From an uncultured Ignavibacteria bacterium (lineage in GTDB: Bacteria > Zixibacteria > MSB-5A5 > DSPP01 > RBG-1), in the NCBI GenBank assembly GCA_964399055.1, contig CAYNPJ010000001.1:582935-646934 (forward strand): a stretch of DNA of 64,000 nt, written 5' to 3'. The notes below the pieces were generated by a model. That model had not been told where the DNA came from, did not search any database, and saw only the letters and a program-made list of their open reading frames with translations. Of this stretch, positions 1 to 35,506 are shown in pieces (position 1 is the stretch's first letter; every line of letters begins with the position of its first letter). The position numbers were made by a program, and so were the translations under genes.

Positions 1-572
1 GAGAGAGAGTCAAGGATATTTCCATTTTAGCGCACGAATTTCTAAAACAACTACAGGAAAAATATCCGGACCGACAGCCAGCCATCAGTGAGTCAGCCTT
101 GGAATTGATTATCCGCTACCACTGGCCCGGCAATGTGCGGGAGCTGAAGAATTTCATCGAGAGCGGGGTGGCCTTGTCGAGAACCGGAAGAATAGAAGTC
201 GGCACAGTTTCGGATTACATAGAGAAGCAGTCGCAGGGCAACCGCAATTTGCCGGTAGTAACCGGCAGAAGCACAACTGAAGCGGAGCATGACCTGATTT
301 TTCAGGCGCTCTCTAGTTTGAAGGCTGAAATCATCTCTTTGAAAAATCTAATCAAAGAAGGGCTGGAGATGACCGTGGGATACCCGGCCAAAAGCGAACA
401 GGCCTCGGAAACAGGTGTTGAAGTTGCGCAAGAGAGCTTAGAAGATTTGGAAAAGGAGCACATCCGAAAAGTTTTGATCCAGGTAGGAAGAAATCGCCGG
501 AAAGCCGCCAAGATTCTAGGAATAGGAGAGAGGACTCTGTACCGCAAGCTGAAGGAATACAGCTTGAGATAA
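1..572 (+). CDS. sigma-54-dependent transcriptional regulator (NtrC/Fis family), C-terminal part; 5' end outside window
   Basis: Frame is open from the window edge. Motifs DISILAHEFL and HWPGNVRELKN are typical of sigma-54 activator AAA+ domains. C-terminal Fis-type HTH: RNRRKAAKILGIGERTLYRKLKEY. Confidence 0.8.
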   Translation, partial: ERVKDISILAHEFLKQLQEKYPDRQPAISESALELIIRYHWPGNVRELKNFIESGVALSRTGRIEVGTVSDYIEKQSQGNRNLPVVTGRSTTEAEHDLIFQALSSLKAEIISLKNLIKEGLEMTVGYPAKSEQASETGVEVAQESLEDLEKEHIRKVLIQVGRNRRKAAKILGIGERTLYRKLKEYSLR

Positions 573-574
573 GG

Positions 575-2197
575 TTGAAAATGGGGAAGCTGATACTGGC
601 AGGGGTGGTTTTGATTGCCGCAACTGGATTCTGTCAGATAATCTCGCCGGAGATTTATCAGACCGAAGAGGATTTGTTAGAAGCTCTGCAATTAGGCGAA
701 ATCACTTTCGACCAGTATTTAGAGCTGCTGGATTTGATGAGGCAGAAAAATTTGTCAGCCGAGAGTGATTCCGAACTGATTACACAGATTCCGGACCTGG
801 ATTATCTTACCGAGGATTCTGTAGATAATGAAACTGAGCAGAAAATCGCCGAGTTCAGACGTACCTCGCCCGCAAAGCAGACTAAAGCTAAGGTAATTCT
901 GCAGCACCGGCAGAATATCTCCGAACCGAGCCAGCCGGAGACCTACTTCAGAATAGAGGCCGGACAGGGGAAAGACTGGAATCTCTATGTGGAAAGCGAG
1001 AATATGGAGAATCAGAATCGAATTAAAAGGAGGGCTTTGGAGGCAGGCAAGCCTCATAACTGGAACTTGGTCCTGGGGAATTTTCAACCGCGTTTCGGCC
1101 TGGGAGTAAATGTGGGTTACCGCACTTACTTAAATTTTTCCTCGCAAAATTCCCTGGAGACGGAAAATACACTTTTATTCCCTTTCTGGACCAGATATAA
1201 TGGAGTGCTGGCCGGTTATCAAAAGAGGAATAATTCCACGGCAATGTTTTATTCGCAGAATAGATTTGGAGATTACAAAGATCAGGTCTGGGGCGGAGCC
1301 GTAAATCTGCGGAGCAAACACTGGTTAATTTCACCAATCTTTTCTTATCAGGAGATTTCTAAAGGAAAAGATAGATTCCTCAGTCGGGCCGGAAGTCTGT
1401 ACGGAAAATTGTTCTGGGAGTCAGGTGAAATTGCAGCAGAGTATGTCTCAACCGATAGAAAAGAAAGCGGGCTGGTGGTGGAAGCGCTTTGGCAAAATAC
1501 CGATAGAATAAACACCTTTTTTTCATTTTGGAGCTACACCCGGGATTTTCTGCATCCCACTTCCGGGGGGAGAGCGCTGCCGGACTACCGCTTGACGGAG
1601 TTAGGGGATTTGGAGTTATCGCACCGCTCCAGGCAGGCCGGGGAGACCGGAGCATATTTTTCAACCGCGGCAAGGCTAAATCCGCGCACTAAATTAGACT
1701 TTGCCTATCAACAGTGGCAGGATGGAAATAGTTATCTGAACAAGAACAAGCTCAGATTGGGTCTGGCACACTGGTTCAAAAAGAACTTCGAGCTGCGCTT
1801 AAAAGAATACTGGGAGGATGATGACTTGAATGCAAGTTCTCCGGATAAATGGACCACGGTTGTAGTTGGAACTTACATTTTTAAAGGAAATACAAAATTA
1901 CAACTCAGGTTGAACTACCGAGTGAGTGATTCAGAATCGGGAAAGATTAATACGACCTGGGATGAGGTGATTTTTTACTTTCCGATTGCGGGAAAACTGT
2001 CCAGCAAGGTCAGACTGCGCTATCGAGATGATGACATTGCAACGGGAAGAAATTCCAGCTGGAGTTTCTACTTGAGTGAAAATTTCTGGCTGGCTGAAAA
2101 CCTGTTGCTTCTGGCGGAATTTGTCTCCAAGGAGTATCAGGATTTGGACAGAGAAGACTTACAGGTTGTAAGAGTGAGGCTGGAGTGGAGTTTATGA
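575..2197 (+). CDS. hypothetical secreted/outer-membrane protein
   Basis: 540-aa ORF with an N-terminal signal-like hydrophobic segment and aromatic-rich alternating strands. No recognisable catalytic motif. Confidence 0.4.
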   Translation: MKMGKLILAGVVLIAATGFCQIISPEIYQTEEDLLEALQLGEITFDQYLELLDLMRQKNLSAESDSELITQIPDLDYLTEDSVDNETEQKIAEFRRTSPAKQTKAKVILQHRQNISEPSQPETYFRIEAGQGKDWNLYVESENMENQNRIKRRALEAGKPHNWNLVLGNFQPRFGLGVNVGYRTYLNFSSQNSLETENTLLFPFWTRYNGVLAGYQKRNNSTAMFYSQNRFGDYKDQVWGGAVNLRSKHWLISPIFSYQEISKGKDRFLSRAGSLYGKLFWESGEIAAEYVSTDRKESGLVVEALWQNTDRINTFFSFWSYTRDFLHPTSGGRALPDYRLTELGDLELSHRSRQAGETGAYFSTAARLNPRTKLDFAYQQWQDGNSYLNKNKLRLGLAHWFKKNFELRLKEYWEDDDLNASSPDKWTTVVVGTYIFKGNTKLQLRLNYRVSDSESGKINTTWDEVIFYFPIAGKLSSKVRLRYRDDDIATGRNSSWSFYLSENFWLAENLLLLAEFVSKEYQDLDREDLQVVRVRLEWSL

Positions 2198-3885
2198 GAT
2201 TGGTGAACTTGTTAATGGCTGTTTTTGTGGCCTTGAGCCCTGCACTTTCACAAGCTCAGGTTGTTATCAATGAAGTATTGGCCAATGAACCGGGGAGTGG
2301 TACTTCTTTAGAGTGGGTGGAATTGTTTAACTCTGATTCGATTTCAGTCAATCTGGCTAACTGGAAATTCGCGGAAGGAGGAGATACAACCGTTTTCTCC
2401 GACCAGATTGTCATGCCGCCCAATGGATATTTGATTTTAGTGCGGAAGTTGGTCTCAATTCCGCCGGATGTAAACAGCTTCGAAGGGAAATGGGGGGATG
2501 GGAGCGGAGTCTGGGGAGATGCGCCATCTGAGAGTTTTCCGGCAATAGAAGCTAAGATGAGTCTAACTAATTCAGCAGGGACGGTTACTCTAATCTCGCC
2601 GATTGACTCTGTTCAGAATTTTAACTGGAATAGGGATGCTGGGGACGGGATTTCATGGGAAAAGATGGACCCTTTGGCCGGGGACGACAGCACTAACTGG
2701 AAGATCTGTGCATTATCTCAGGGCAGTACTCCCGGAAATATTAATTCTGTCACTCCGGCGGAGAATGATTTGACCATAGTAGAATTTTACAGCGAGCCGG
2801 ATAATCCGGAGGAGAATGCGGTCTTCGACCTCAAGCTGGATATTCAAAACCTGGGCCTATCAACTTCTCCGGCCAATAGCCTGACCATCTTCGATGACCT
2901 GAATTTTAACCAGATTATGGAAAGGGAGGAGGAGCTTTCCGCGGGGAGTATCCCTCAATTAGGTGTTACAGAAGTTTTTACCTTCACTGCAGCAGCAATA
3001 CTCACAGGAGGAAATCACCGATTAGTAGCCGGTTTAGATACCGATGACAAAATCTACAACAACCAGAAGTCGCTGGATTTAAGGGTGGGAGAATTTCTGA
3101 CAGACATAATCATCAATGAGATTATGGCTGCGCCGGATTTAAATCAGAATCAACCGGAATGGATGGAGCTGTACAACCGGAGCGAGCAGACGGTTAATTT
3201 GAAAAACCTGCAGTTGGGTGATGATAAAAAGCAGAGTATCATTACCGCAGAGGATATGTTCTTAGAGCCAGGGCGATTTCTTATTGCCACAGAAGACCGG
3301 AATGATTTCTTACATGCCTACCCAAGTTTCACCGGGCAATTAGTACAAATTGAAGGCTGGCAGACTTTAGATAACAGCGGGGATACGGTGATTCTGAAAG
3401 ATTCGCTCGGATTCGTGATGGAAAAAGTTGCTTATCCCTCCCAGAGTCTGAAGGGAGTCTCCTGGGAGAGGATTGATTACGAAAAAAGCTCATCTGAGCC
3501 GGACAACTGGTGGAGGAGCGTGGATTCAAGCGGCTCTACGCCTGGCAAACAGAACTCGGTGCAGGCGACTTTTACGTCCGGCATCGGGGTCAAAATAGAG
3601 CCAAACCCTTTTTCACCGGACGAAGACGGTTTTGACGACCTGACCGAAATCGAGTTCACCATTCCACTCGGAGTTGACCTGACCATGAAAATCTACGACC
3701 GAAGAGGTAGGCTGGTCAGAACTTTATTGGATAACGAGCCAAAGGTCTCCGGGAAAATCAGCTGGGATGGCAAGAATAATGACAGGAACAAGGTCAGAAG
3801 CGGAGTGTATGTTCTGTTCATTGAAGCTAAGGGAGAGGTCAGGGAAGTCAAGAAGGCGGCCATAGCAGTGACCAAGGGGAAATGA
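2185..3885 (+). CDS. lamin-tail-domain (LTD) protein with T9SS-type C-terminal sorting domain
   Basis: Signal peptide. Two LTD-like motifs: VINEVLANEPGSGTSLEWVELFN and IINEIMAAP...EWMELYN. C-terminus NPFSPDEDGFDDLTEIEFTIP...GVYVLFIEAKGEV resembles a Por secretion tail (T9SS CTD). Confidence 0.6.
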   Translation: MEFMRLVNLLMAVFVALSPALSQAQVVINEVLANEPGSGTSLEWVELFNSDSISVNLANWKFAEGGDTTVFSDQIVMPPNGYLILVRKLVSIPPDVNSFEGKWGDGSGVWGDAPSESFPAIEAKMSLTNSAGTVTLISPIDSVQNFNWNRDAGDGISWEKMDPLAGDDSTNWKICALSQGSTPGNINSVTPAENDLTIVEFYSEPDNPEENAVFDLKLDIQNLGLSTSPANSLTIFDDLNFNQIMEREEELSAGSIPQLGVTEVFTFTAAAILTGGNHRLVAGLDTDDKIYNNQKSLDLRVGEFLTDIIINEIMAAPDLNQNQPEWMELYNRSEQTVNLKNLQLGDDKKQSIITAEDMFLEPGRFLIATEDRNDFLHAYPSFTGQLVQIEGWQTLDNSGDTVILKDSLGFVMEKVAYPSQSLKGVSWERIDYEKSSSEPDNWWRSVDSSGSTPGKQNSVQATFTSGIGVKIEPNPFSPDEDGFDDLTEIEFTIPLGVDLTMKIYDRRGRLVRTLLDNEPKVSGKISWDGKNNDRNKVRSGVYVLFIEAKGEVREVKKAAIAVTKGK

Positions 3886-4676
3886 AGAAATTATTGTCAG
3901 TTATGCTAATCAGCAAGTGCTGCTGGGGAGCTTTTGAAATCACCGGAATAGATGCGCGAAGTTCGGCTTTAGGAAATTCGAGCTACGCGCTGTCAAAGGG
4001 CGTAGTGAGCAGTTTTCTGAATCCAGCAGGATTAGCAAAATTAGAAAAACCTGAGTTCTATTTGAGCTACAGTAATCAATTCAGCCTGGCTGAATTCTCG
4101 CAGGAGTGCATAGGGTTTGGCTTCAGCTATCGAAAAATAGGCATGGGTGTAGGATTTGAGAATTTCGGAAAAAGTGATTTTTATCAAGAGCAGAGAGTGA
4201 ATTTTTCAGCCGGGGCGCAAGTTATACCGAAATTAAATTTAGGGGTTGGCACGAGTTACTTAATGTTGAGAGCAGAAGGATACCCGACCCAAGATGCGGC
4301 CACGTTTGCTTTGGGTTTTCAATGGCAGAAGGGGAAATTTGAAATGGGTGGAGTGGTCAAAAACATCAATCAGCCAAAGGTAAGCGGGGATGAGGTCTTG
4401 AGAAATTATAATTTGGGAATACTTTACAAGGCACTGCCAGAGGTTAACTTAATGGTGGGATTATTTTATGACGCTGAGTTTGAGGAGCAGTTGCAGTTGG
4501 GACAGGAGATAAATGTTTCGCAGAACTTAGCCCTGCGGGCCGGATTTCAGACCGAGCCGAATCGCTATTCCTTTGGTGCGGAATTTTCCTGGAGCAGAAT
4601 TGAAATTGATTATGCTTATGTGAATCATCCGGAGTTGGGAGGGAGTCATAACGTAAGCATGAGCCTGAAGCTCTAA
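3882..4676 (+). CDS. putative PorP/SprF-family outer-membrane beta-barrel (T9SS cargo partner)
   Basis: 264 aa with a signal peptide and beta-barrel-like alternating pattern. Immediately downstream of, and coupled with, a T9SS-CTD cargo gene, as is typical for PorP/SprF pairs. Confidence 0.4.
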   Translation: MKKLLSVMLISKCCWGAFEITGIDARSSALGNSSYALSKGVVSSFLNPAGLAKLEKPEFYLSYSNQFSLAEFSQECIGFGFSYRKIGMGVGFENFGKSDFYQEQRVNFSAGAQVIPKLNLGVGTSYLMLRAEGYPTQDAATFALGFQWQKGKFEMGGVVKNINQPKVSGDEVLRNYNLGILYKALPEVNLMVGLFYDAEFEEQLQLGQEINVSQNLALRAGFQTEPNRYSFGAEFSWSRIEIDYAYVNHPELGGSHNVSMSLKL

Positions 4677-4710
4677 AGTTACAAGGTAGAACACGTTCGT
4701 ATAAAGATAT

Positions 4711-5871
4711 ATGACTGAAATCTACTTAAGAAGAGAGTCAGAGGAGCTAGAAGAAAAAATCTTAGCCCCCTACGCCACCAAGAGCAAGGACTCCCGCGGC
4801 AGAGTCCATCCGGAAGAGGAGCACCCCTATCGCACCTGCTTCCAGCGCGACCGGGACCGCATTATTCACTCCACTGCTTTCCGCCGATTAGAGTACAAGA
4901 CCCAGGTCTTTGTCAACCACGAAGGGGACCACTTCCGCACCCGCTTGACTCATACGATTGAAGTGACCCAGATCGCCCGCTCGATTGCCAGGGCCCTACG
5001 TCTGAATGAAGATTTAGCCGAAGCAGTGGCTTTAGCCCATGACTTAGGACATACCCCGTTCGGTCACGCGGGAGAAGAGGCCCTGCATGAAATTATGAAG
5101 GATAACGGAGGATTTGAGCATAATCGCCAGTCACTGCGGGTGGTTGACTACTTGGAAGAAAAATATCCGGAATTTCCCGGATTGAATTTGACCTATGAAG
5201 TCCGTGAGGGGATTGTGAAACATGAGACCGACTGGGATAAGCCCTTTCCTGAGGGATTTAATCCTGAGGAAAAGCCGGTCCTGGAAGCGCAAATTGTCAA
5301 CTTGGCCGATGAAATTGCCTATAACTGTCATGACATCGATGACGGGCTCTATTCTAAGGTTTTAAGCCAGCAGATGTTAGAAGAGGTGGAGCTGTGGATG
5401 ATTCTGTATAAAAAATTAAAAGAGAAATACACCAACCTGAGCGGGGCCAAAGTGAGGCACTTCATGGTGCGGCAGATGATAAATTGGGAAGTCTCGGATT
5501 TGCTGCAGACGACCGGACAGAAGTTAAAGGAGTTGGGAATCAACGCTATCGAAGATGTCCGCAGAGCTAAAGAACAGATTATCACATTTTCTCCTGGACT
5601 ACAGAAGCTGAATTCCGAATTGAAGAGCTTTCTGTTCCAGCATATGTATAAGCATTTCCGGATGGTGAGGATGGCAGATAAGGCCAGAAGAATTCTGACT
5701 GATTTGTTTGAAGCTTATTTGGAGAATCCGGAGCAGCTGCCCGGCTCGACCCGTGAAAAATTGAAAACGGAAGATAAAATGCGGGTGGTGTGCGACTATA
5801 TTGCCGGGATGACTGATAGGTTTGCCCAGCAGGAGTATAAGAAGCTGTTTGACCCGTTTGAGAAGGTATAG
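4711..5871 (+). CDS. dgt: dGTPase-like HD-domain deoxynucleoside triphosphate triphosphohydrolase
   Basis: HD motif HTIEVTQIARSIARAL...AHDLGHTPFGHAGEE. Length and architecture are typical of dGTP triphosphohydrolase-like proteins. Confidence 0.85.
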   Translation: MTEIYLRRESEELEEKILAPYATKSKDSRGRVHPEEEHPYRTCFQRDRDRIIHSTAFRRLEYKTQVFVNHEGDHFRTRLTHTIEVTQIARSIARALRLNEDLAEAVALAHDLGHTPFGHAGEEALHEIMKDNGGFEHNRQSLRVVDYLEEKYPEFPGLNLTYEVREGIVKHETDWDKPFPEGFNPEEKPVLEAQIVNLADEIAYNCHDIDDGLYSKVLSQQMLEEVELWMILYKKLKEKYTNLSGAKVRHFMVRQMINWEVSDLLQTTGQKLKELGINAIEDVRRAKEQIITFSPGLQKLNSELKSFLFQHMYKHFRMVRMADKARRILTDLFEAYLENPEQLPGSTREKLKTEDKMRVVCDYIAGMTDRFAQQEYKKLFDPFEKV

Positions 5872-5889
5872 TCTGATAATTTTTAGCTT

Positions 5890-6446
5890 GTAGACCCAGC
5901 TTGCCCCAAGCTGGGACAGAATAAAATGGTCAGATTAAGAAGATATAATGTGGAAAATTTAGCTTATCTAATAACTACTTCTGCTTTTCTGAATAGACCT
6001 TCGCTTTTGACAAACCAGAGAGCAGAAACAGTAGCGGATTACATCTATCGTGCCCGGCCTGACTTGATTCAATACCTTTTGGCATTTGCCATAATGCCCA
6101 GTCACATGCATATACTTTTTGTTCCCCAACCCGGAGTTACTATCTCAGGGGTTCTTCACTATATTAAAAGAGGCAGTGCCAGAGTAATTCAGGCACAAGA
6201 AAAGACAACCGGCCGGTTGTGGACCAGGAGATTTCACGACCAGGGCATCAGGACTGAGGAGCAGTTGAGAGAGTCGATTGAGTACATTCACAATAATCCG
6301 GTTAAAGCGGGGATGGTAAAGGAGGCGGAGGAGTATTTATGGTCGTCGGCGAATTCGAGGTGGAAGACGGATGTGGATTTGTATTTGGTCCCACGTTGAG
6401 GGTTCGACTCAGGCTCACCCTAAAAGGCAACGTGGGTCTACGAGCT
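5890..6446 (+). mobile_element. RAYT/IS200-like element copy 1 (left hairpin, tnpA, right hairpin)
   Basis: Left end GTAGACCCAGCTTG-CCCC-CAAGCTGGG hairpin (5890-5915). Right hairpin CCCACGTTG...CAACGTGGG-TCTACGAGCT (6390-6446). The GTAGACCCA / TGGGTCTAC termini are inverted repeats. Confidence 0.65.
5926..6399 (+). CDS. tnpA: REP-associated tyrosine transposase (IS200/IS605-like HuH TnpA)
   Basis: 157 aa. HuH motif HMHILF, C-terminal catalytic Tyr region EYIHNNPVKAG, IS200-like size. Identical to the copy at 8458-8931. Confidence 0.75.
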   Translation: MVRLRRYNVENLAYLITTSAFLNRPSLLTNQRAETVADYIYRARPDLIQYLLAFAIMPSHMHILFVPQPGVTISGVLHYIKRGSARVIQAQEKTTGRLWTRRFHDQGIRTEEQLRESIEYIHNNPVKAGMVKEAEEYLWSSANSRWKTDVDLYLVPR

Positions 6447-7349
6447 AATCCGTATTCTTATGTGAGGAATAATCCTTTGAACTACACAGACCCCAGTGGG
6501 ATGGACCCGATAGGTCTTTTCAAAGGTAGTGGTTTTCCTAGAGGAGGAATTGGAAAACCCGGTATACGCAATTTTGCAGGGCCGGAAGGGGGCACAGAAG
6601 GGGGAGGAAAATCTGTACCTTTTGGGAAATTATTCCCGGTGGCCGCAAGCAGGGGTCCTGAGGCTGCTTTTAATTATCTCGTCGGGAAAGGGATGATAAT
6701 ACATGACATGGGACCGCTAATCCTAGGTCCTAATCTGGGACCATCACGGCACGACCCATTTGATCTTTGGATGAAGATGGCCAATCAAGCTGCGGTTATA
6801 AATGATGCTAATAGGCGACAGTTAATGATTGAAGGAAACCTTCATTATTTGATGCAAGATGCTATAGATTACGCTAATAATCATCCCGAAGCTACTGAAG
6901 CAGAGATACAAGATTGGGTCAAGCAAGCAGCTCGAGCTACTGGTATACCTGAGCAAGTTGCTCTATCGGTACTCTACACGGAAAACAGAATAGGTATAGA
7001 TGATATTAAAAAAGGTGAGGATGCTAATAAGGTCAATCTGATGCAGATAGAAGACGGTCCGGGAATGGCAGGAACAGGAGAATATTTCGGTTTAAATCTA
7101 GCAGACGAAAGCGCTGTTCCTTGGCGGACTAATTGGGGCGCCAATATAGTGGCGGGTATGGCTTATTACGCACACCTGTATTATGATTACGCAATTACCC
7201 GTTATGGTTTTGAGCCAGGCTCTAGGCAGGCTTATCAGTCTGCCTATTCTATGTACAATGGTGGCCCAAAAGCTTGGTATCGATTCTTATTTATGATGGA
7301 TAAACGCGACCAGAATTTTCAAAACGAGCTAAACTATTGGGGTTTTTAA
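6339..7349 (+). CDS. orphan RHS C-terminal toxin module (RHS core end plus lysozyme/SLT-like tip), 5' truncated at the transposon boundary
   Basis: Homology begins exactly at the element end (6444) with ANPYSYVRNNPLNYTDPSGM, the conserved end of the RHS repeat-associated core (DPxG autoproteolysis motif). The tip carries SLT/lytic-transglycosylase-like motifs (NLMQIEDGPG, YSMYNGGPKAW). No RHS/YD repeats upstream. Confidence 0.55.
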   Translation: MVVGEFEVEDGCGFVFGPTLRVRLRLTLKGNVGLRANPYSYVRNNPLNYTDPSGMDPIGLFKGSGFPRGGIGKPGIRNFAGPEGGTEGGGKSVPFGKLFPVAASRGPEAAFNYLVGKGMIIHDMGPLILGPNLGPSRHDPFDLWMKMANQAAVINDANRRQLMIEGNLHYLMQDAIDYANNHPEATEAEIQDWVKQAARATGIPEQVALSVLYTENRIGIDDIKKGEDANKVNLMQIEDGPGMAGTGEYFGLNLADESAVPWRTNWGANIVAGMAYYAHLYYDYAITRYGFEPGSRQAYQSAYSMYNGGPKAWYRFLFMMDKRDQNFQNELNYWGF

Positions 7350-7411
7350 TACGCTCACTACCATTTTTGCACTAAGTCACAAACCAAAGAGTAGAAAGGA
7401 GGATAAAGACG

Positions 7412-8140
7412 ATGAGAATCAAATACGTAATCACTTTGTTAACTTTAATCTCTATTTTAACTGGGCAGAGCAATTCGAATAAAGCAGCTAAACCGGAGAG
7501 GGGAGAATTATACACTATCATTGGTCAGCTCTATGGTTATAGAGAAAGCCCAATTATAAAACCGGGAGTAGTTATGTGCTATGATTCAATGGATTGGGAC
7601 ATAAGAGACACCATTAATGCCCCAGGTGATTGGAAGGGAGAGAAATATGAGGTGAGGGAATATAGGTGGAAGGATTCGAGTTTTGTCTTTGAACGCAGAT
7701 ATTACACGAATGAAACCGGCAAGAAGCAGATCCATCGAGAGGATTATGATTATTCAAGAACCAGAAATTTAGAACTACCAGAGGTATTTTTTCAAATTCC
7801 ACAGATGGCCTTCATTGCAGGGATGAGGACGACAAAAGCTTATGCAGAAGGGGACTTCAATTCTGATGGAAGAAAAGACTTAGTAATCGTAATGGGAGAT
7901 ACTACGAGAGCAAAATATCCGAAATTTATAGACTACTATTTAGAGATTTGGGAGCAGAAAAATGATGGTGGATTCTCCAGAAAATTCCGTTACGATTTTA
8001 GCGATATTGATGTTGGAAAAGTAACGATACAAGATGCCACAGGTGATGGGAGACCAGAGGTTATACTTTGGACATTTAGTGGTGGTGCCAGTGGTTGGAC
8101 TGAGTTTGTGGATATTTTTTCAAGAGTAAAGGATAAATAA
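7412..8140 (+). CDS. secreted FG-GAP-like protein, candidate immunity protein for the upstream RHS-CT
   Basis: Signal peptide MRIKYVITLLTLISILTG. FG-GAP-like motifs GDFNSDGRKDLVIV and DATGDGRPEVILW. Sits directly downstream of a periplasm-acting toxin tip. Confidence 0.4.
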   Translation: MRIKYVITLLTLISILTGQSNSNKAAKPERGELYTIIGQLYGYRESPIIKPGVVMCYDSMDWDIRDTINAPGDWKGEKYEVREYRWKDSSFVFERRYYTNETGKKQIHREDYDYSRTRNLELPEVFFQIPQMAFIAGMRTTKAYAEGDFNSDGRKDLVIVMGDTTRAKYPKFIDYYLEIWEQKNDGGFSRKFRYDFSDIDVGKVTIQDATGDGRPEVILWTFSGGASGWTEFVDIFSRVKDK

Positions 8141-8421
8141 GCAGTTTCCTTAAAAATGAGGAGGATACTATCCTAAGCACTGGAGTAGAGAAGTATCGCT
8201 TTTTTGCTTTCTGCGTTGGGATTCTTGTTTACATATCTTTTTTACCAGATTCAGGCCTTGCTCAGATACCCCAGATTCAGGAAAACCAAATTATAAATGA
8301 CCCAGCTATAATCCCTCAAGGGGAATTCATTCTGGATACCACCATTAAGATTCCTCAACTCTCCTTCCGTAACGCCGACCTCCGCGATATCTTCGACGCT
8401 TTAGCCAAAACCTACAAGCTT
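8138..8421 (+). pseudogene. 5' fragment of an STN/secretin-N-domain protein, paralog of 34625-35506, truncated by the RAYT element
   Basis: Translates to ...IPQLSFRNADLRDIFDALAKTYK, near-identical to IPQLSFRNADIRDIFDALAKTYN in the 34625 gene. No ATG. The frame runs in-frame into tnpA copy 2. Confidence 0.5.
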
Positions 8422-8978
8422 GTAGACCCAGCTTGCCCCAAGCTGGGACAGAATAAAATGGTCAGATTAAGAAGATATAATGTGGAAAATTTAGCTTATC
8501 TAATAACTACTTCTGCTTTTCTGAATAGACCTTCGCTTTTGACAAACCAGAGAGCAGAAACAGTAGCGGATTACATCTATCGTGCCCGGCCTGACTTGAT
8601 TCAATACCTTTTGGCATTTGCCATAATGCCCAGTCACATGCATATACTTTTTGTTCCCCAACCCGGAGTTACTATCTCAGGGGTTCTTCACTATATTAAA
8701 AGAGGCAGTGCCAGAGTAATTCAGGCACAAGAAAAGACAACCGGCCGGTTGTGGACCAGGAGATTTCACGACCAGGGCATCAGGACTGAGGAGCAGTTGA
8801 GAGAGTCGATTGAGTACATTCACAATAATCCGGTTAAAGCGGGGATGGTAAAGGAGGCGGAGGAGTATTTATGGTCGTCGGCGAATTCGAGGTGGAAGAC
8901 GGATGTGGATTTGTATTTGGTCCCACGTTGAGGGTTCGACTCAGGCTCACCCTAAAAGGCAACGTGGGTCTACGAGCT
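8422..8978 (+). mobile_element. RAYT/IS200-like element copy 2 (identical to copy 1)
   Basis: Identical left hairpin (8427-8447), tnpA, and right hairpin with the same 29-nt loop insertion; ends in GGGTCTACGAGCT. Confidence 0.65.
8458..8931 (+). CDS. tnpA: REP-associated tyrosine transposase (identical copy 2)
   Basis: Protein is 100% identical to the 5926-6399 product. Confidence 0.75.
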   Translation: MVRLRRYNVENLAYLITTSAFLNRPSLLTNQRAETVADYIYRARPDLIQYLLAFAIMPSHMHILFVPQPGVTISGVLHYIKRGSARVIQAQEKTTGRLWTRRFHDQGIRTEEQLRESIEYIHNNPVKAGMVKEAEEYLWSSANSRWKTDVDLYLVPR

Positions 8979-9149
8979 TACCGGAGTAGGAATGGGGTTA
9001 AGTGCGCCAACATATATAGATTGGATTAATGATAATATTATGCCAATAATTAATGAATATTGTCCAGCATGCGGAGTTTATCCCATGGGTCCTTAGGTCG
9101 TTATTGTTTGTGGATGTCAAGCAGTGAAAAGAGAATCTAAAGGAAAATC

Positions 9150-9494
9150 ATGATACTAGACCTAGCACAAATTGCAATAGGGTTATTTTTCCTGCTAGTT
9201 GTATTTGTTTATCTTAAGAGATATCATTCCTTTCCCCTCAGCCCTCTCTACGCTTTAGGTTGGGGCATATTCATATCCATTGAATTGGGAATATATCTCT
9301 ACTCAAAACGGGTCGACTTCACTAATAGACTATTTATCATTCTTATGTTAGGACTTTATCTATTAGCACTATTCAGCCTATTAAATCACCTTGGAGAGAG
9401 AGATGACCAAGAATGGAAGAGGTTTCTCCATAGCCCAAATTTTTGGGGGTTGACCCTCATCAACTTTGCCATAGCATTAGCATTCGTATTATAA
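9150..9494 (+). CDS. hypothetical small membrane protein
   Basis: 114 aa with three hydrophobic helices, in an AT-rich patch. No homology recognised. Confidence 0.3.
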   Translation: MILDLAQIAIGLFFLLVVFVYLKRYHSFPLSPLYALGWGIFISIELGIYLYSKRVDFTNRLFIILMLGLYLLALFSLLNHLGERDDQEWKRFLHSPNFWGLTLINFAIALAFVL

Positions 9495-9811
9495 TTTTTC
9501 TAAATTTACATAGAATGAATTGCACTTGCGCATACAACCATTAAGAGCAGAACAGTTAAGTGATGTGAACTAACTCCACTTCAAGTAACTTTAGCAAGAC
9601 ATACAAGACAGTATGAACAATCAACAAATAAATCCCACTGCAGTCGTAATCAAGCCCGTCGGATTAATGGTTATTCTTACTATCTGTACATCTCTAGTGA
9701 AGTTTATTCTTGAACCATATCTTGGAATGTACTCATATGGTTACACTTCGTTCGTCTTACAGAATTTGGTGGATAGTGCTGGTGTAGTGAACCCCATTTG
9801 TCAAGACACGT

Positions 9812-9984
9812 TCAAGCTGCTTTTTCTATGCGGTTTTGGGCCTCAAACTCCTCCGGACTTTTGTAACCCAAAGCCGAATGGGGGTAGTGGTGATTGTAAT
9901 CTTCTACCCACCTTTTTAGTTTAGTCTCCACCTCCTCTAAGCTTTTAAATTCATTGACCCAGACTAGTTCCTCCTTGATAGCTT
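9812..9984 (-). pseudogene. C-terminal fragment of an IS3/IS481-family (rve integrase-core) transposase
   Basis: ...WVEDYNHHYPHSALGYKSPEEFE matches the conserved DDE-transposase C-terminal motif (N..RPHS.LGY.TP.EF). The N-terminal part of the ORF is encoded by the REP hairpin, so it is truncated. Confidence 0.5.
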
Positions 9985-10011
9985 GTAGACCCAGGTTGCC
10001 CCCAACCTGGG
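9985..10011 (+). repeat. solo REP-like hairpin of the RAYT family
   Basis: GTAGACCCAGGTTG-CCCC-CAACCTGGG. Same architecture as the RAYT left ends, with a compensatory GC>GG / GC>CC change that preserves the stem. Confidence 0.55.
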
Positions 10012-10281
10012 CATAGTTTCGCACCTTGGCTCGATTTCGCTCACCATCGAATTATGAGGACAGGGTAGGTCTCCATTTTCTCTTTTTATACTTGCACCAA
10101 ATATGAAGACTGATGCACAAAGAGACGGCAGCAGTCTCTCCGCTTAAACCTAACAGCAGTTACGCCCTTTTTGTCATTTATTTATGCACTCCTAACTTAT
10201 AGCCAGATAGAAAGTTAGCAGGCCATTTCACCACCTTATCCGACGCATTGAGTAAACCCTCACTGGCACAGGGTTTGCTCG

Positions 10282-10695
10282 ATGGTCTATCAGAAGACAA
10301 AAGGAAAAACGATGAACTGCTACTTTTACGGAACCGCCAGAGAGAGCCAGTCAATCTTAGGACACAACAGCGTGGTGGCCTTTTCCATCCCGGAGCTGAA
10401 TCTAATCTTCAAGGCCCAGATTAAAGGGAATCAGGCTCAGGCCGAATATGCCAGCCTGATAGCTCTCTTAGAGTTCATCGAGCTTAATCCCCGACTTTTT
10501 GACAAGAAGAAGATTCAGATTTACGGGGACAGCCCCACGGTAGTTCATCAGGTCAATTTTCAGGAAGGCTGCTCCAAAGAATTGGAGCCCTACCGCAATT
10601 TAGCCCTGCAATATAAAAGGAGAATCTCCTACACCTTAGGCTGGGTCTCCAAAGACGAAAACCGGGCCTTTCGGCTTACCTCTCCGGCTTTCTGA
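10282..10695 (+). CDS. RNase H-like domain protein (possibly inactive)
   Basis: Pattern ...GNQAQAEYASLIALLEFI...IQIYGDSPTVVHQV...DENRAFRL matches the RNase HI/RVT_3 Glu/Asp/Asp cores, but the first catalytic Asp is absent (YFYGTA). Confidence 0.4.
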   Translation: MVYQKTKGKTMNCYFYGTARESQSILGHNSVVAFSIPELNLIFKAQIKGNQAQAEYASLIALLEFIELNPRLFDKKKIQIYGDSPTVVHQVNFQEGCSKELEPYRNLALQYKRRISYTLGWVSKDENRAFRLTSPAF

Positions 10696-31760: not shown

Positions 31761-32292
31761 GTAGACCCAGCTTGTCCCCAAGCTGGGATAAGATAAGATG
31801 GTGAGATTACGACGATATAATGTCGAAAACTTGGCATACTTTGTCACAACTTCTTCGTTTTTGAGCCAGCCCGTTCTCCTGACAAATAAAAGAGCCGACG
31901 CAATCGCGAACCATATTTATGCGGCTAAAGAGGAATTGATTGAGTATCTTTTGGCATTTGCCATTATGCCTAATCATTTGCATTTGTTATTTGTACCGAT
32001 GCCGAACGTAACTATTTCTCAAGTTTTGCATTATATTAAGAAGGGGAGTTCCAGGGTTATACACGAACAGGAAAAAGGCAGCGGGAGGTTGTTGACCAGG
32101 CGATTTCATGACAGAGGGATTAGGAGCCAGGAGCAACTGAGGAAGGCCATTGAGTATATTCATTTTAATCCGGTGAAGGCGGGATTGGTTAAGGAAGCGG
32201 AGGAGTATTTATGGTCGTCAGCGAATTCGAGGTGGAAGACGGATGCGGATTTGTATTTAGTCCCACGTTGAGGCAACGTGGGTCTACGAGCT
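31761..32292 (+). mobile_element. RAYT/IS200-like element copy 3 (diverged)
   Basis: Same GTAGACCCAGCTTG...CAAGCTGGG left hairpin and CCCACGTTG-AG-GCAACGTGGGTCTACGAGCT right hairpin, but without the 29-nt loop insertion. Confidence 0.65.
31798..32271 (+). CDS. tnpA: REP-associated tyrosine transposase (copy 3, about 70% identical to copies 1 and 2)
   Basis: HuH motif HLHLLF and catalytic region EYIHFNPVKAG. Same length as the other copies. Confidence 0.7.
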   Translation: MVRLRRYNVENLAYFVTTSSFLSQPVLLTNKRADAIANHIYAAKEELIEYLLAFAIMPNHLHLLFVPMPNVTISQVLHYIKKGSSRVIHEQEKGSGRLLTRRFHDRGIRSQEQLRKAIEYIHFNPVKAGLVKEAEEYLWSSANSRWKTDADLYLVPR

Positions 32293-32516
32293 TGGGGAAG
32301 TATCCAAACTTTTTGGATACTCAAAAGAAGTTGCTTTGACTAAAAGCTTATTATATCATTTCTTTATTTACGAATCATCTGTCGAGACTTGGGAGCCATG
32401 GGAATATTGGGACCTTTATTCTGACATGTATGGAGTAACAAGTGCGTACTCAAGATGAGAACTTTTTGTTTACACGAATTAGAGCCAAAACGATCTAACA
32501 GTTAAAGGACCCAAGA

Positions 32517-33365
32517 GTGAAGAACAGTGGATGGTATTTCTTTACTGGTTTCCTAGTCTTTCAGTCTTTTGGAACATCTGTAACTAGCGGCTACGATGAA
32601 ATACTAACTAATAGTTATTCTTTTCTAGTGCAGCAGGTGACATTCAAGATTGACACACCTCTTGCGGAAAGTAGAAAGAAGCAGTCAAAGCTTGGCTTCA
32701 ACTCATTTGCTCTGATAGGACTTGGGCATCATGATAACTTGACTAAATTTAAGCGCACTGCCTTACCCAAACTAAAAACTGGAGTGGTATATGTTCGATT
32801 GGACCTTGGAATTGGACTACACTATAACTCAGCTTTGTTAATCCCTATTATGTCAATTAGCAAACCCATAACCGGCACAAGCCGTGATAGCGGTCTCATA
32901 CATAACAGCGAAATACTTGAGGTTGGAATTCCGTTCCAGTTTAGGCTGCTTCCCCAGGAATCACGCATCAGCATGGTTCCAATGGTGGGCCATAAGTGGT
33001 TGTGGGAATTAGCGAAAATCAGTGACAACGATGATCAAACTCCTGATGTGTTGAATAAAAAATACAAGGATAATGGGTTGCTTGTTGGTTCAGGATCAAG
33101 CTTTAGAATACTCAGGAAAGTGAATAGCGAGGTTAAACTAACGTTTACTTTTGTCTATGAATTCCTAAGAAATCAGGTGCAAAGATATAGACTTGAATGG
33201 CGAAACATGTGGTTTGATTCTTTTGAGGTTGATTCTAACTCAAGGCAGTTATCTGTATCTGAGATTATGAATTATTGGTCTTTTGGAGTTGAGTATATTT
33301 CAAGGTCTGGCGGGAGAGTTGATTGGTATTTTCTTGGGTCGGTTTCCTTTGGATACGGATTTTAA
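32517..33365 (+). CDS. hypothetical outer-membrane beta-barrel protein
   Basis: Signal-like N-terminus, alternating aromatic strands, C-terminal ...SFGYGF (terminal Phe). Low GC. Confidence 0.35.
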   Translation: MKNSGWYFFTGFLVFQSFGTSVTSGYDEILTNSYSFLVQQVTFKIDTPLAESRKKQSKLGFNSFALIGLGHHDNLTKFKRTALPKLKTGVVYVRLDLGIGLHYNSALLIPIMSISKPITGTSRDSGLIHNSEILEVGIPFQFRLLPQESRISMVPMVGHKWLWELAKISDNDDQTPDVLNKKYKDNGLLVGSGSSFRILRKVNSEVKLTFTFVYEFLRNQVQRYRLEWRNMWFDSFEVDSNSRQLSVSEIMNYWSFGVEYISRSGGRVDWYFLGSVSFGYGF

Positions 33366-33540
33366 TTGATGCCTTCAGCTTGTGTCAAAAACATCAATAC
33401 ACAGACATGCATAAGTTCTTGGCAACTTGTTAAAAGTAAATTTATAGATATGTTATTTAATTTACAGAATGGATCAATAGGTTTGGCTTACATTGATTTT
33501 TTCAATCAAAATCCTAACATTCTTTGACTGAGGAGGTGGA

Positions 33541-34101
33541 ATGAAACGAATAATCTTCTCACTTGGGATAGTATGGGTTATTTACTCTTTTGGTTGGTCT
33601 GTCCAGAACCCCAAACGAATAACAGAATTCTCCATAGCTGCCTCTTTTCAGCTTTTGCAAAGTGGAGGAGAGACAGAAAGCTTCCTTAATATTCCTATTA
33701 GAGCGGGATACTTTTTTAAAAGAAATATAGAAATAGAGGCCGAATTCACCTTAACCGCACCTGAGAATGCAGACGCGGGCTACATTTTATCGGGCATTGC
33801 CTCCTATAATTTTATAACACCAGGTGGACTTATGCCATTTATCTCAGCTGGATACGGTGTTACTAACTCCTATCCAGTTGTCAGCAATCAGGTGGTTACT
33901 AATGCTGGCGGAGTAACCTTAGGCGTGTTAAACTTGGGCGGAGGTCTGAAAGTACCCATGGGGACAAAGGCAGCTCTGAGAGCTGAGTACCGCTTTCAGA
34001 ACTTTACCGGAAAACGTGATGTGACAGGGCCTTTCCAGCAAAATGAGATAAGCTTTCGAGCACATTCCATTTTCACAGGCGTCAGTTTATTTTTACCTTA
34101 G
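33541..34101 (+). CDS. small outer-membrane beta-barrel protein (OmpW/OmpA-beta-barrel-like)
   Basis: Signal peptide and eight-strand-like pattern with Gly/aromatic alternation. Confidence 0.45.
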   Translation: MKRIIFSLGIVWVIYSFGWSVQNPKRITEFSIAASFQLLQSGGETESFLNIPIRAGYFFKRNIEIEAEFTLTAPENADAGYILSGIASYNFITPGGLMPFISAGYGVTNSYPVVSNQVVTNAGGVTLGVLNLGGGLKVPMGTKAALRAEYRFQNFTGKRDVTGPFQQNEISFRAHSIFTGVSLFLP

Positions 34102-34132
34102 ACGAAAAGTGAACAAATTGTAGATCGAAAAG

Positions 34133-34618: not shown

Positions 34619-34624
34619 TGGTTA

Positions 34625-35506
34625 GTGAGGCAAGTATACATGGAAGGCTCATCTCGCTTCTTAAAATGGCTATTCTTGATGCAGGTGATAATATGTTTAG
34701 TAGCGAGTCTTAAGGCACAGCCACTTTTACTCTCACTTACTCAAGTCGTAGAGGATACTTCTCAATCGCAGGTCGATACTGTCGATTTCAAGCAATCCTT
34801 AGTAAGCCCCGATACGATAATCCCACAGCTCTCTTTCCGTAACGCAGACATTCGTGATATCTTTGATGCTTTGGCTAAAACCTACAATCTCAACCTCTGG
34901 ATAGATGAAAAAGTTCAAGGGAAAACCACTCTCCACTTGGTCAATGTCTCACTCAACAGCGTGTTTGAATTCTTGGCTCAGCAGAATCAATTAGTCTATG
35001 AAAAATCGGACAACATAATCAAGGTATACAAGGCTCCTCCTCCGCCTCCTGAGCCTCTGAAGATTTTCTATTCGCTCAGTTTCCTTTCGGTTGACTTGAA
35101 GGATGCAGACCTGGCTGAAGTTATCAGGACTCTGGTTAAGGAGAGTAAAGAAAACATAGTCATAGAGGCCGGGGTTATAGGCAGAATAAGTGGCACCCTT
35201 GAGTCAATAGAGTTTGAAAAGGGTTTAAAAGCCCTGATGATTTCCAATGGTTATGTGGTCAGAAAGATTGAGGGGATTTACCACATTGACCGGCTGCCCA
35301 CCGAGCAGCAGGCCCCTACTTTCAAAGGGGTTTATTCAGTCAGCTACAAAGATGACAAGCTCAATATAGATATCGGCAATGCCCAACTATCCAACCTTGT
35401 CCGCCAGATAGCCGAGATGGCCAAGCTGGATATTTTCGTATATGGAGACCTGCAAGGGCAGATTTCGGTCTTTCAGCCGGAGATTCCGTGTCTTCGTCAC
35501 TTGTGA
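34625..35506 (+). CDS. STN/secretin-N-domain protein
   Basis: LSFRNADIRDIFDALAKTYNLNLWIDEKVQGKTTLHLVNVSLNSVFEFLAQQNQLVY fits the secretin/TonB short N-terminal (STN) domain. No secretin barrel domain present. Confidence 0.45.
   Translation: MRQVYMEGSSRFLKWLFLMQVIICLVASLKAQPLLLSLTQVVEDTSQSQVDTVDFKQSLVSPDTIIPQLSFRNADIRDIFDALAKTYNLNLWIDEKVQGKTTLHLVNVSLNSVFEFLAQQNQLVYEKSDNIIKVYKAPPPPPEPLKIFYSLSFLSVDLKDADLAEVIRTLVKESKENIVIEAGVIGRISGTLESIEFEKGLKALMISNGYVVRKIEGIYHIDRLPTEQQAPTFKGVYSVSYKDDKLNIDIGNAQLSNLVRQIAEMAKLDIFVYGDLQGQISVFQPEIPCLRHL

What the first reader, a model, noticed from the sequence alone, without database searches (positions are those of the whole stretch)
5890..8978. Two 100%-identical RAYT (IS200-like HuH transposase) units bracket an RHS-toxin/immunity cassette
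The segments 5890-6446 and 8422-8978 are identical over 557 nt (hairpin, tnpA, hairpin) and flank a roughly 2 kb low-GC segment. That segment carries an orphan RHS C-terminal toxin tip and a secreted candidate immunity gene. RAYTs are normally single-copy domesticated genes that mobilise REPs. Here the pair forms a composite-transposon-like structure around polymorphic-toxin cargo, which suggests RAYT-mediated capture or shuffling of toxin tips. An assembly collapse of a repeat cannot be fully excluded
Basis: partly seen in the sequence, partly recalled or inferred. Interest (0 to 1): 0.7.

Follow-up and report, generated by a model that had tools for sequence, protein, structure and literature searches.

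The report
Twin RAYT units flank orphan toxin cassette
Two identical copies of a small mobile gene unit (a REP-associated transposase with its hairpin ends) sit on either side of a leftover bacterial toxin/antidote gene pair inside foreign DNA at an insertion hot spot, but the evidence does not show that they carried the toxin there as one transposon.

Summary
Window 5885-6446 and 8417-8978 are an exact 562-nt direct repeat. Each copy is a complete unit: GTAG-headed REP hairpin, 157-aa RAYT gene, inverted REP hairpin. A third unit lies at 31761-32287 (76% protein identity) and a solo REP at 9979-10013.

Between the twins lie three things:
- an RHS end piece (last 19 core residues plus a very rare, probably lytic-transglycosylase-like toxin);
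- a secreted FG-GAP immunity candidate;
- the first ~93 codons of an STN/secretin-like gene, cut by copy 2.

Relatives add two points. First, the order dGTPase – RNase H-like – holA is conserved with a ~250-nt spacer. The window has about 4.1-4.2 kb of foreign DNA exactly there, running about 1 kb beyond copy 2. Second, a relative carries toxin remnant – immunity – STN gene with no RAYT, broken by other insertion sequences instead.

The RAYT units therefore behave like a recently active small insertion sequence sitting at rearrangement junctions. Recombination between copies explains the layout at least as well as composite transposition. The RAYT|tip junction rests on the deposited contig alone. 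The case is moderately interesting, and toxin capture by the RAYT is unproven.

The parts
4711..5871 (+). dGTPase-like HD phosphohydrolase gene. Native left border of the insertion hot spot.
   Evidence: Pfam HD + HD_assoc. Conserved synteny with the RNase H-like and holA genes in relatives.
5885..6446 (+). RAYT unit 1: left REP 5885-5918, RAYT ORF 5926-6399, right inverted REP about 6375-6446.
   Evidence: Exact 562-nt repeat. NF047646 103.8 bits against cut-off 80. Best PDB hit is TnpA(REP) 4er8, E=9e-10. REP hairpins fold at -10 to -12.6 kcal/mol, z -3 to -4.
6447..7349 (+). Orphan RHS C-terminal piece: last 19 core residues (NPYSYVRNNPLNYTDPSGM), a linker, and a putative lytic-transglycosylase-like toxin domain (about 6900-7349).
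   Evidence: TIGR03696 positions 58-76. Aligns with the RHS-fused P0002. The profile hits only MltC, E=0.011, with the catalytic Glu aligned. The L085 homologue gives a weak SLT hit. No RHS core anywhere in the window.
7412..8140 (+). Candidate immunity protein: secreted, FG-GAP repeat.
   Evidence: FG-GAP_3 E=1.6e-7 and weak XAC2610_fam. The 61% homologue P0007 again sits directly after the toxin remnant in L085/L086.
8141..8416 (+). 5' fragment (about 93 codons, no standard start codon in frame) of an STN/secretin-N0-type gene. It is cut after ...LSFRNADLRDIFDALAKTY by RAYT unit 2.
   Evidence: 90.8% nt identity to L085 2548-2612. The native continuation ...TACAATCTCAACCTCTGG is seen in L085 and in the window paralogue, and is absent after 8978.
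8417..8978 (+). RAYT unit 2, identical to unit 1 (RAYT ORF 8458-8931).
   Evidence: Both junctions appear in independent contigs L001 and L171/L082.
8979..9811 (+). Further foreign, low-GC (37%) DNA with two small membrane-protein ORFs (9150-9494, 9613-9924).
   Evidence: No counterpart in the spacer of relatives. GC. No significant family hits.
9812..9978 (-). Remnant (C-terminal ~55 aa) of an IS3/IS481-type rve transposase, cut off by the solo REP.
   Evidence: rve_3 E=1.7e-11, transpos_IS3 E=3e-13. L171 breaks 30 nt into it, which suggests it is repeated elsewhere.
9979..10013 (+). Solitary REP (GTAGA-CCCAGGTTG-CCCC-CAACCTGGG) near the right edge of the foreign block.
   Evidence: Folds at -10.3 kcal/mol, z -4.1. 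The stem has compensatory changes relative to the other REPs.
10091..10695 (+). Native DNA resumes: conserved CTTGCAC..TATGAAG..TGCACAAA block, then the RNase H-like gene (10282-10695).
   Evidence: Alignment with L092 and L091 spacers. Synteny.
31761..32287 (+). RAYT unit 3: diverged paralogue (76% protein identity) with the same REP ends, its right REP having a 3-nt loop. It sits in an intergenic spacer after an acyl-CoA dehydrogenase gene.
34625..35506 (+). Full paralogue of the STN/GspD-N0 gene whose fragment is in the cassette (context only).
   Evidence: Pfam type_II_gspD_N0 and STN. 81.7% nt identity to 8350-8420 and 83.9% to L085.

Best explanation
The repeat is a complete REP-RAYT-REP unit that behaves in this genome like a small insertion sequence. 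There are at least three units in 64 kb, and two are identical, so they were copied recently.

The twins sit at the two ends of a decaying polymorphic-toxin module. That module is an RHS end piece with a probably peptidoglycan-cleaving toxin, its periplasmic immunity gene, and the start of the neighbouring STN/secretin-like gene.

The module, the two RAYT units and about 1 kb of other foreign DNA together form a 4.1-4.2 kb insertion. It lies at a hot spot directly behind the dGTPase stop codon.

Proposed steps:
1. RAYT units inserted by single-strand cut-and-join next to their GTAG hairpins. One went into an RHS gene just inside its 3' end, 19 codons before the core/tip border and right after a native CT dinucleotide. 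The other went into the STN gene.
2. Homologous recombination between identical units then gave each unit one cassette-side flank and one unrelated flank. This happened either by deletions in place, or by looping out a 2.5-kb RAYT+cassette circle that re-integrated into a unit already at the hot spot.

Shown: the repeat, the family assignments, the truncated genes at both inner junctions, the empty site in relatives, and the same cassette without RAYTs in a relative.

Inferred: the order of events, the recombination step, and the toxin's activity.
For: - Exact 562-nt repeat with sharp borders.
- RAYT membership: NCBIfam above cut-off, 4er8 as best structure hit, invariant HUH and Tyr.
- Seven REPs of one design in the window against 0.46 expected. 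Their stems co-vary (GC/GC, CG/CG, GG/CC, plus GCC/GGC in relatives).
- Relatives of this RAYT have a stand-alone REP doublet with the same two stem types (L087 5185/5249).
- Inner junctions cut real genes. RHS homology to P0002's gene starts at 6445, after a native ...ACT|AATCC. The STN gene is cut at ...TACAA| and its continuation is missing.
- Outer flanks are unrelated to the cassette. The left one is the native dGTPase 3' end.
- Synteny dGTPase - about 250 nt - RNase H-like - holA holds in at least 10 relatives. L091 and L098 carry other inserts between the same two genes, L091's in the same <=15-nt interval.
- L085/L086 carry toxin remnant - immunity - STN gene with rve and IS110 elements and no RAYT.
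- Reported TnpA(REP) cleavage at CT beside GTAG-REPs (PMC8266576).
Against:
- The recombination step is one of several histories that give the same map.
- The RAYT|tip junction is not in any independent contig. In SRR10095362 the repeat shows two entries but only one exit.
- RAYTs have never been shown to transpose themselves in vivo. Duplication by another route cannot be excluded.
- 100% identity could also come from gene conversion.
Confidence: 0.55

Rival explanations
1. True composite transposon. The RAYT enzyme cut at the outermost REPs (left REP of unit 1, right REP of unit 2) and moved RAYT-cassette-RAYT as one single-stranded piece into the hot spot.
For: - Two identical units in direct orientation bracket cargo whose inner junctions are donor-type (truncated RHS and STN genes) and whose outer flanks are unrelated.
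- The cassette is foreign to the locus.
- Both unit ends carry AGCT/CT next to GTAG, the reported cleavage dinucleotide.
Against: - The insertion does not end at unit 2. Another 1.0-1.1 kb of foreign DNA follows. This model therefore needs an older island whose left edge coincided with the target.
- No second copy of the composite was found.
- Y1 HUH elements use hairpins on one strand, whereas these ends are inverted repeats.
- No RAYT has been shown to move cargo.
Confidence: 0.15
2. Bystander colonisation. The cassette and the other foreign DNA arrived and decayed for unrelated reasons. The RAYT units merely inserted later into dispensable DNA, and the truncations are unrelated deletions.
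For: - The relative L085 shows the same cassette equally truncated and riddled with other IS types.
- The hot spot takes up unrelated genes in L091 and L098.
- The RAYT-RHS co-occurrence in other genomes is not significant, 2/80 against 0/80, p about 0.5.
Against: All three truncation points in the block (RHS 5' end, STN 3' end, rve remnant) coincide to the base with a REP or RAYT-unit end. That is unlikely if the deletions were unrelated.
Confidence: 0.17
3. Assembly problem. The deposited contig pairs the repeat's flanks wrongly, or the RAYT|tip join is an artefact. The true state could be one chromosomal RAYT unit plus a separate or circular RAYT+cassette molecule, or a longer repeat.
For: - No independent contig covers 6446|6447 or 6447-6636.
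- L171 runs through the right border unbranched.
- A k-mer graph cannot separate R-cassette-R from R plus a 2532-bp circle.
Against: - Two distinct left contexts are proven by contigs that break exactly k-1 into the repeat, so a second exit must exist.
- The cassette's left end is unconnected in any scenario. A G-rich stretch (6580-6612) offers a possible, untested reason for a coverage gap followed by tip clipping.
- The tip ORF is continuous across 6447-6974 in alignment with P0002.
- The contig is 1.435 Mb.
Confidence: 0.1
4. Ordinary segmental duplication of a domesticated, immobile RAYT gene, with no element mobility involved.
For: Most RAYTs are single-copy and vertically inherited (PMC5581495).
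Against: - The duplicated segment starts and ends exactly at the REP ends of the unit.
- A third, diverged unit has the same ends at an unrelated intergenic site.
- The flanks share no similarity.
Confidence: 0.03

Closest known systems
REPtrons: RAYT / TnpA(REP) with flanking REPs (E. coli TnpA(REP), PDB 4er8; group 3 systems such as Stenotrophomonas REPtron Sm)
   Same: - Y1 HUH protein with HUH and Tyr motifs, and 4er8 as the best structural relative.
- The gene is flanked by inverted REPs.
- Each REP is a short perfect palindrome (9-bp stem, 3-4-nt loop) preceded by GTAG, with a CT dinucleotide just upstream.
- Relatives carry stand-alone REP doublets.
   Different: - The whole unit is multi-copy here: three in 64 kb, two of them identical.
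- Only one solo REP occurs in 64 kb, so the gene-carrying unit rather than the REPs appears to have spread.
- Units sit at gene-truncating junctions.
IS200/IS605-family insertion sequences (e.g. IS608)
   Same: - Small element encoding only a Y1 HUH transposase.
- Hairpin ends and no target duplication.
- Identical copies in one genome.
- All copies in one orientation.
   Different: - Scores below the IS200 NCBIfam cut-off (31 against 55 bits) and above the RAYT cut-off.
- Its ends are inverted repeats with GTAG heads, rather than unlike left and right hairpins on one strand.
Orphan rhs-CT/rhsI (and cdiA-CT/cdiI) modules (PMC3150448)
   Same: - A tip preceded by a short stretch of core ending in the DPxG(L/M) motif.
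- Followed by a small immunity gene.
- The homologous tip is fused to RHS core elsewhere (P0002).
- Orphan cdiA-CT modules are reported to be interrupted by IS and transposon genes.
   Different: - It lies far from any full-length rhs gene within the 64-kb window.
- It retains only 19 core residues.
- It is bracketed by RAYT units, an element type for which I found no reported link to such modules.
Composite transposons and IS26-type translocatable units (from general knowledge)
   Same: Two identical direct copies of one element bracket cargo, and a 2.5-kb circle with one copy could loop out by recombination.
   Different: - The transposase class is different (single-strand HUH).
- The pair does not delimit the inserted DNA.
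- No evidence of movement as a unit.
Peptidoglycan-hydrolase effectors with periplasmic immunity proteins (e.g. Xanthomonas X-Tfe/X-Tfi, XAC2609/XAC2610; from general knowledge)
   Same: - Toxin motifs align with the MltC catalytic region.
- The immunity candidate is secreted, has FG-GAP-type repeats and gives a weak XAC2610-family hit.
   Different: All similarities are below curated cut-offs. Delivery would be through an RHS protein, which is missing here.

Membership tests
RAYT (REP-associated tyrosine transposase) | Y1 HUH fold with an HUH motif and one catalytic Tyr; curated family model | tested here: met
   NF047646 103.8 bits (cut-off 80). H60/H62 and Y120 are invariant in 13 relatives. 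Best PDB hit is TnpA(REP) 4er8, E=9e-10, ahead of IS200-type 2ec2 at 4.7e-6.
RAYT (REP-associated tyrosine transposase) | Gene flanked by REP hairpins in inverted orientation, each with a 5' GTAG | tested here: met
   All three units have GTAG-A-9-bp stem REPs on both sides in inverted orientation. Stems co-vary and fold stably.
RAYT (REP-associated tyrosine transposase) | Cognate REPs/REPINs dispersed in many copies over the genome | tested here: inconclusive
   Only one solo REP in 64 kb. Relatives do show a stand-alone REP doublet.
RAYT (REP-associated tyrosine transposase) | Single copy per REP class, no recent duplicates (the 'domesticated' behaviour) | tested here: not met
   Two 100% identical units 2.5 kb apart and a third at 76% protein identity. 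Duplicates are a documented minority (PMC5581495).
IS200/IS605 insertion sequence | TnpA of the IS200 type (curated model) | tested here: not met
   NF033573 31 bits against a cut-off of 55.
IS200/IS605 insertion sequence | Multiple identical copies with precise common ends and no target-site duplication | tested here: met
   Identity starts and stops at the same bases. No direct repeat in the flanks.
Composite transposon | Two copies of one element bracket the cargo | tested here: met
Composite transposon | The outer ends of the pair coincide with the borders of the inserted DNA relative to an empty site | tested here: not met
   The left border fits. On the right, native DNA resumes only at or before 10091, about 1.0-1.1 kb beyond unit 2.
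Composite transposon | The same composite found at another site or in another genome | not testable with these tools
   The source genome is absent from the searchable collections. The toxin is unique apart from two distant relatives.
Orphan RHS toxin/immunity module | Starts with the 3' end of the RHS core including DPxG(L/M), with no YD-repeat core upstream | tested here: met
   TIGR03696 positions 58-76. No RHS core in the window. P0002 shows the fused form.
Orphan RHS toxin/immunity module | Cognate immunity gene directly downstream | tested here: inconclusive
   The adjacency is conserved in L085/L086 at 61% identity. Protection has not been tested.
SLT-type lytic transglycosylase (toxin domain) | Catalytic Glu followed by GLMQ-like and AYNxG-like motifs; family model hit | tested here: inconclusive
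   The profile hits only MltC, E=0.011, with YTEN aligned to QTES (the catalytic Glu, which is Gln in 4cfo). Pfam SLT on the L085 homologue gives 18.3 bits against a cut-off of 21.3. No Pfam hit for the window protein. Both structure models were too poor to use.

The most novel reading that the evidence does not exclude
A RAYT-REP unit that is still an autonomous mobile element can, in pairs or through a one-copy circular intermediate, pick up and relocate adjacent genes, here a polymorphic-toxin tip with its immunity gene. That would be a previously undescribed route for shuffling RHS toxin cassettes, and the first case of a RAYT moving cargo rather than only REPs.
Probability: 0.2. Interest if true: 0.7.

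Novelty: new variant of a known kind. Interest (0 to 1): 0.45.

Why it matters
RAYTs are usually described as domesticated, single-copy genes that no longer copy themselves. Here a whole REP-RAYT-REP unit is duplicated base-perfectly and has precise ends. It lies at the exact points where three genes are truncated. This makes it a natural case for testing whether some RAYTs are still autonomous elements that remodel genomes.

If the pair, or a one-copy circle, moves, it would link RAYTs to the traffic of polymorphic-toxin cassettes.

The locus also supplies three other things:
- a very rare RHS toxin family, probably peptidoglycan-cleaving, with a conserved FG-GAP immunity partner;
- a precisely defined insertion hot spot behind a dGTPase gene;
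- a caution about the database entry for the 336-aa 'protein', which is a chimera of RAYT-unit sequence and toxin tip.

Tried and rejected
- Two AlphaFold runs on the toxin (single sequence, and a 2-sequence alignment) gave pLDDT 40 and 46. No fold search was run.
- Pfam finds nothing on the window toxin even at E<=10.
- The genome-contig scan with the RAYT did not contain the source genome (best hits 30-36% identity). A genome-wide census of RAYT units, REPs, RHS genes and reciprocal junctions was therefore impossible.
- Exact-protein look-ups for the 336-aa chimeric ORF, for RAYT 3 and for a 310-aa partial product meant to catch the RAYT|tip junction all found nothing.
- I tested whether RAYTs are enriched next to RHS tips. 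Two of 80 distant RAYT loci have RHS tips (both from one related lineage) against 0 of 80 control loci, p about 0.5. I rejected this as evidence.
- REPs do not mark the RHS module borders in those two loci.
- I considered that the STN fragment might be a duplicate of the window's own paralogue at 34.6 kb. I rejected this because its N-terminal part instead matches L085's cassette-linked gene.
- I considered L001's pass-through of the repeat as proof of physical linkage. I rejected this because a k-mer contig only shows that no branch was seen.


Full report
**1. The observation**

Window 5885-6446 and 8417-8978 are identical over 562 nt. Identity in the adjoining 20-100 nt falls to chance.

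Each copy holds three parts:
- a left hairpin, AGCTT-GTAG-A-CCCAGCTTG-CCC-CAAGCTGGG;
- a 157-aa ORF;
- a right hairpin in inverted orientation, with stem CCCACGTTG/CAACGTGGG and a 29-nt loop that has a small inner stem. Its stem overlaps the ORF's stop codon.

A 16-nt REP core motif occurs 7 times in the window, against 0.46 expected. Six occurrences flank three RAYT genes. The third unit is at 31761-32287, has 76% protein identity, and its right hairpin has a 3-nt loop. The seventh is a solo REP at 9979-10013.

The middle of the stem differs between REPs but always stays complementary: GC/GC, CG/CG and GG/CC here, and GCC/GGC in relatives. All fold well as single-stranded DNA, with z-scores from -3.1 to -5.5.

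**2. What the parts are**

*The RAYT.* The ORF is a RAYT by every test available.
- NCBIfam REP_Tyr_transpos scores 103.8 bits (cut-off 80), while the IS200 model scores 31 (cut-off 55).
- The best solved relative is E. coli TnpA(REP) 4er8 at E=9e-10.
- The HUH histidines and the Tyr of the EYIHxNP motif are invariant in 13 relatives.
- GTAG-headed perfect palindromes with a CT just upstream match what is described for REPtrons, where TnpA(REP) cuts at CT and needs GTAG (PMC8266576).

*The tip.* 6447-7349 opens with NPYSYVRNNPLNYTDPSGM, the last 19 positions of the RHS-associated core. The only informative relative, P0002, has the same tip fused to 114 aa of RHS core. There is no RHS core anywhere in the window.

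*The toxin family.* It is extremely rare. An exhaustive scan of 1.84 billion representatives finds only itself, the L085 remnant, P0002 and two marginal hits. A two-sequence profile of the C-terminal domain hits only MltC lytic transglycosylases (E=0.011). Its YTEN aligns to the catalytic QTES, and its LMQI to GLMQV. The L085 homologue gives a sub-threshold Pfam SLT hit. I therefore read the toxin as probably peptidoglycan-cleaving. This is an inference, because both structure models failed.

*The immunity candidate.* The next gene (7412-8140) has a hydrophobic leader (read by eye), FG-GAP repeats and a weak XAC2610-family hit. Its 61% homologue follows the toxin remnant in L085/L086. It is thus a conserved, presumably periplasmic partner.

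*The STN fragment.* 8141-8416 is the first ~93 codons of an STN/GspD-N0-type gene, cut after ...AKTY by unit 2.

**3. Context from relatives**

*The empty site.* A metagenome scan with the dGTPase gave loci at 66-79% identity. The order LTD protein - PorP - dGTPase - RNase H-like - holA - PIMT is conserved, with 230-450 nt between the dGTPase and RNase H-like genes. In the closest relative, L092, the gap is 247 nt. In the window that gap is 4.4 kb.

A conserved block, CTTGCAC..TATGAAG..TGCACAAA, follows the dGTPase stop within ~15 nt in L092. In the window it reappears at 10091, and in L091 it reappears after a different 2.5-kb insert. L098 has yet another insert between the same two genes.

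So the interval just behind the dGTPase stop is an insertion hot spot. The window's foreign block runs from 5885 to somewhere between 10013 and 10090. It contains unit 1, the tip, the immunity gene, the STN fragment and unit 2. It also contains 0.8 kb of 37%-GC DNA with two small membrane ORFs, an rve-transposase remnant on the minus strand, and the solo REP.

*The cassette without RAYTs.* L085/L086 and three further contigs carry the cassette without any RAYT. The layout is toxin remnant (C-terminal half only) - immunity - STN gene 5' part - intact rve IS - STN gene continuation - IS110 transposase. The immunity-to-STN adjacency therefore predates the RAYT insertion. In another lineage the module is being broken up by other element types.

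**4. The junctions**

On the tip side, nucleotide similarity to P0002's gene starts at 6445. The native gene reads ...TATACT|AATCC, so the join lies right after a native CT.

On the STN side, the native sequence ...ACCTACAA|TCTCAACCTCTGG is seen in both L085 and the window paralogue. It is replaced after TACAA by the unit, and the continuation is absent to the right of unit 2.

The rve remnant is likewise cut exactly at the solo REP.

Each twin thus has one flank belonging to the cassette and one unrelated flank. Three gene truncations coincide to the base with REP or RAYT-unit ends.

**5. Mechanism**

The map fits RAYT units that first inserted into an RHS gene and into the STN gene, followed by recombination between identical units. 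The recombination could be two deletions in place. It could also be excision of a 2532-bp RAYT+cassette circle that re-integrated into a unit already at the hot spot.

True composite transposition by the enzyme gives the same inner junctions. However, it predicts that the pair's outer ends are the borders of the insertion, and that fails on the right. Pure bystander insertion does not explain why every truncation ends at a REP.

I could not separate the sub-models, because the source genome is not in the searchable collections.

**6. Is it an assembly artefact?**

In SRR10095362, Logan contigs L083 (window 1-5914) and L082 (6637-8446) both stop exactly 30 nt into the repeat. That is the signature of a true repeat with two left contexts.

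L171 (8417-9845) starts at the repeat's first base and passes its right border unbranched. L001 (SRR10095373) covers 8049-9102. So both junctions of unit 2 and the left junction of unit 1 are independently seen.

The RAYT|tip junction and 6447-6636 are not. A second exit from the repeat must exist. A G-rich stretch just upstream of 6637 is a possible reason for the gap, though this was not tested. The tip ORF is continuous across that region in alignment with P0002.

I therefore give mis-assembly about 0.1. A k-mer graph cannot tell R-cassette-R from one chromosomal unit plus a free circle.

**7. Comparison and novelty**

RAYT duplicates are a known minority: 0.8-6.3% of members in the main groups and 30% in group 6 (PMC5581495). 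Orphan CT/immunity modules are known too (rhs-CT/rhsI and cdiA-CT/cdiI), and orphan cdiA-CT genes are reported to be interrupted by IS elements (PMC3150448). I found no paper linking RAYTs to RHS or polymorphic toxins.

Two distant RAYT loci, L025 and L066 (one related lineage), have a RAYT unit right after an array of RHS end pieces. This is not significant against a control set.

**8. Verdict**

This is a real and unusual arrangement built from known parts. It gives good evidence for a recently copied, IS-like RAYT unit and for REP-linked rearrangement. Toxin capture by the RAYT is unproven.

Noticed in passing
L025:1-6513 and L066:4345-6513: In an Omnitrophota MAG and a related 'Planctomycetia' MAG, arrays of RHS end pieces each followed by a small lipoprotein gene end in a 170-aa RAYT. 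The RAYT is in the same orientation, 85-107 nt after the last immunity gene, inside its own ~600-bp inverted-repeat unit. These RAYTs are only ~28% identical to the window's.
   Followed up: partly
window 5872-10090; L091:6580-9047; L098:11147-13271: The short spacer right after the dGTPase stop codon holds different foreign DNA in at least three lineages. L091 has a 637-aa secreted protein gene, L098 a 298-aa unknown gene, and the window the RAYT/toxin block. L092 and others have it empty.
   Followed up: partly
window 6339-7349 (database protein P0001): The 336-aa ORF on record for this gene is a chimera. Its first 36 residues are read from the 3' end and right REP of RAYT unit 1, in another frame than the RAYT. 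Only from residue 37 is it RHS tip. The same start gives a 52-aa ORF at unit 2 (8871-9029).
   Followed up: yes
P0021 and P0009 (RAYT relatives; L087:994-1524): REP hairpins are translated inside called RAYT proteins. P0021 has a 15-residue insert (HTPKDFVDPRCPQRG) that reads like a REP inserted into the gene. P0009's N-terminal extension (..SVDPACPQAGG..) is read-through of the left REP.
   Followed up: no
window 6400-6425 / 8932-8957 versus 32271-32273: The right REP of units 1 and 2 carries a 26-nt insertion in its loop relative to unit 3. The insertion forms an extra inner stem (GGGTT..AACCC). Its origin and effect are unknown.
   Followed up: no
window 31761-35506: RAYT unit 3 lies 2.3 kb upstream of the full paralogue of the STN/GspD-N0 gene whose fragment is in the cassette. 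Between them are a 282-aa ORF with no family hit, an OMP beta-barrel protein and a T9SS-tail protein. This may be coincidence.
   Followed up: partly
window 6447-6636 (Logan SRR10095362): The independent assembly has no contig for the first 190 nt of the tip. L082 starts at 6637, just after a G-rich stretch (6580-6612). This could be a coverage drop or strain variation. It is not resolved.
   Followed up: partly
window 8137-8457: The STN fragment's reading frame stays open through the left REP into the RAYT ORF of unit 2, but it has no ATG/GTG/TTG start. The fragment looks like a dead gene rather than a fusion.
   Followed up: no
window 9816-9845 (end of L171): The Logan contig breaks 30 nt into the rve remnant. 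This suggests that this IS3/IS481-type sequence is itself repeated elsewhere in the genome or sample.
   Followed up: no
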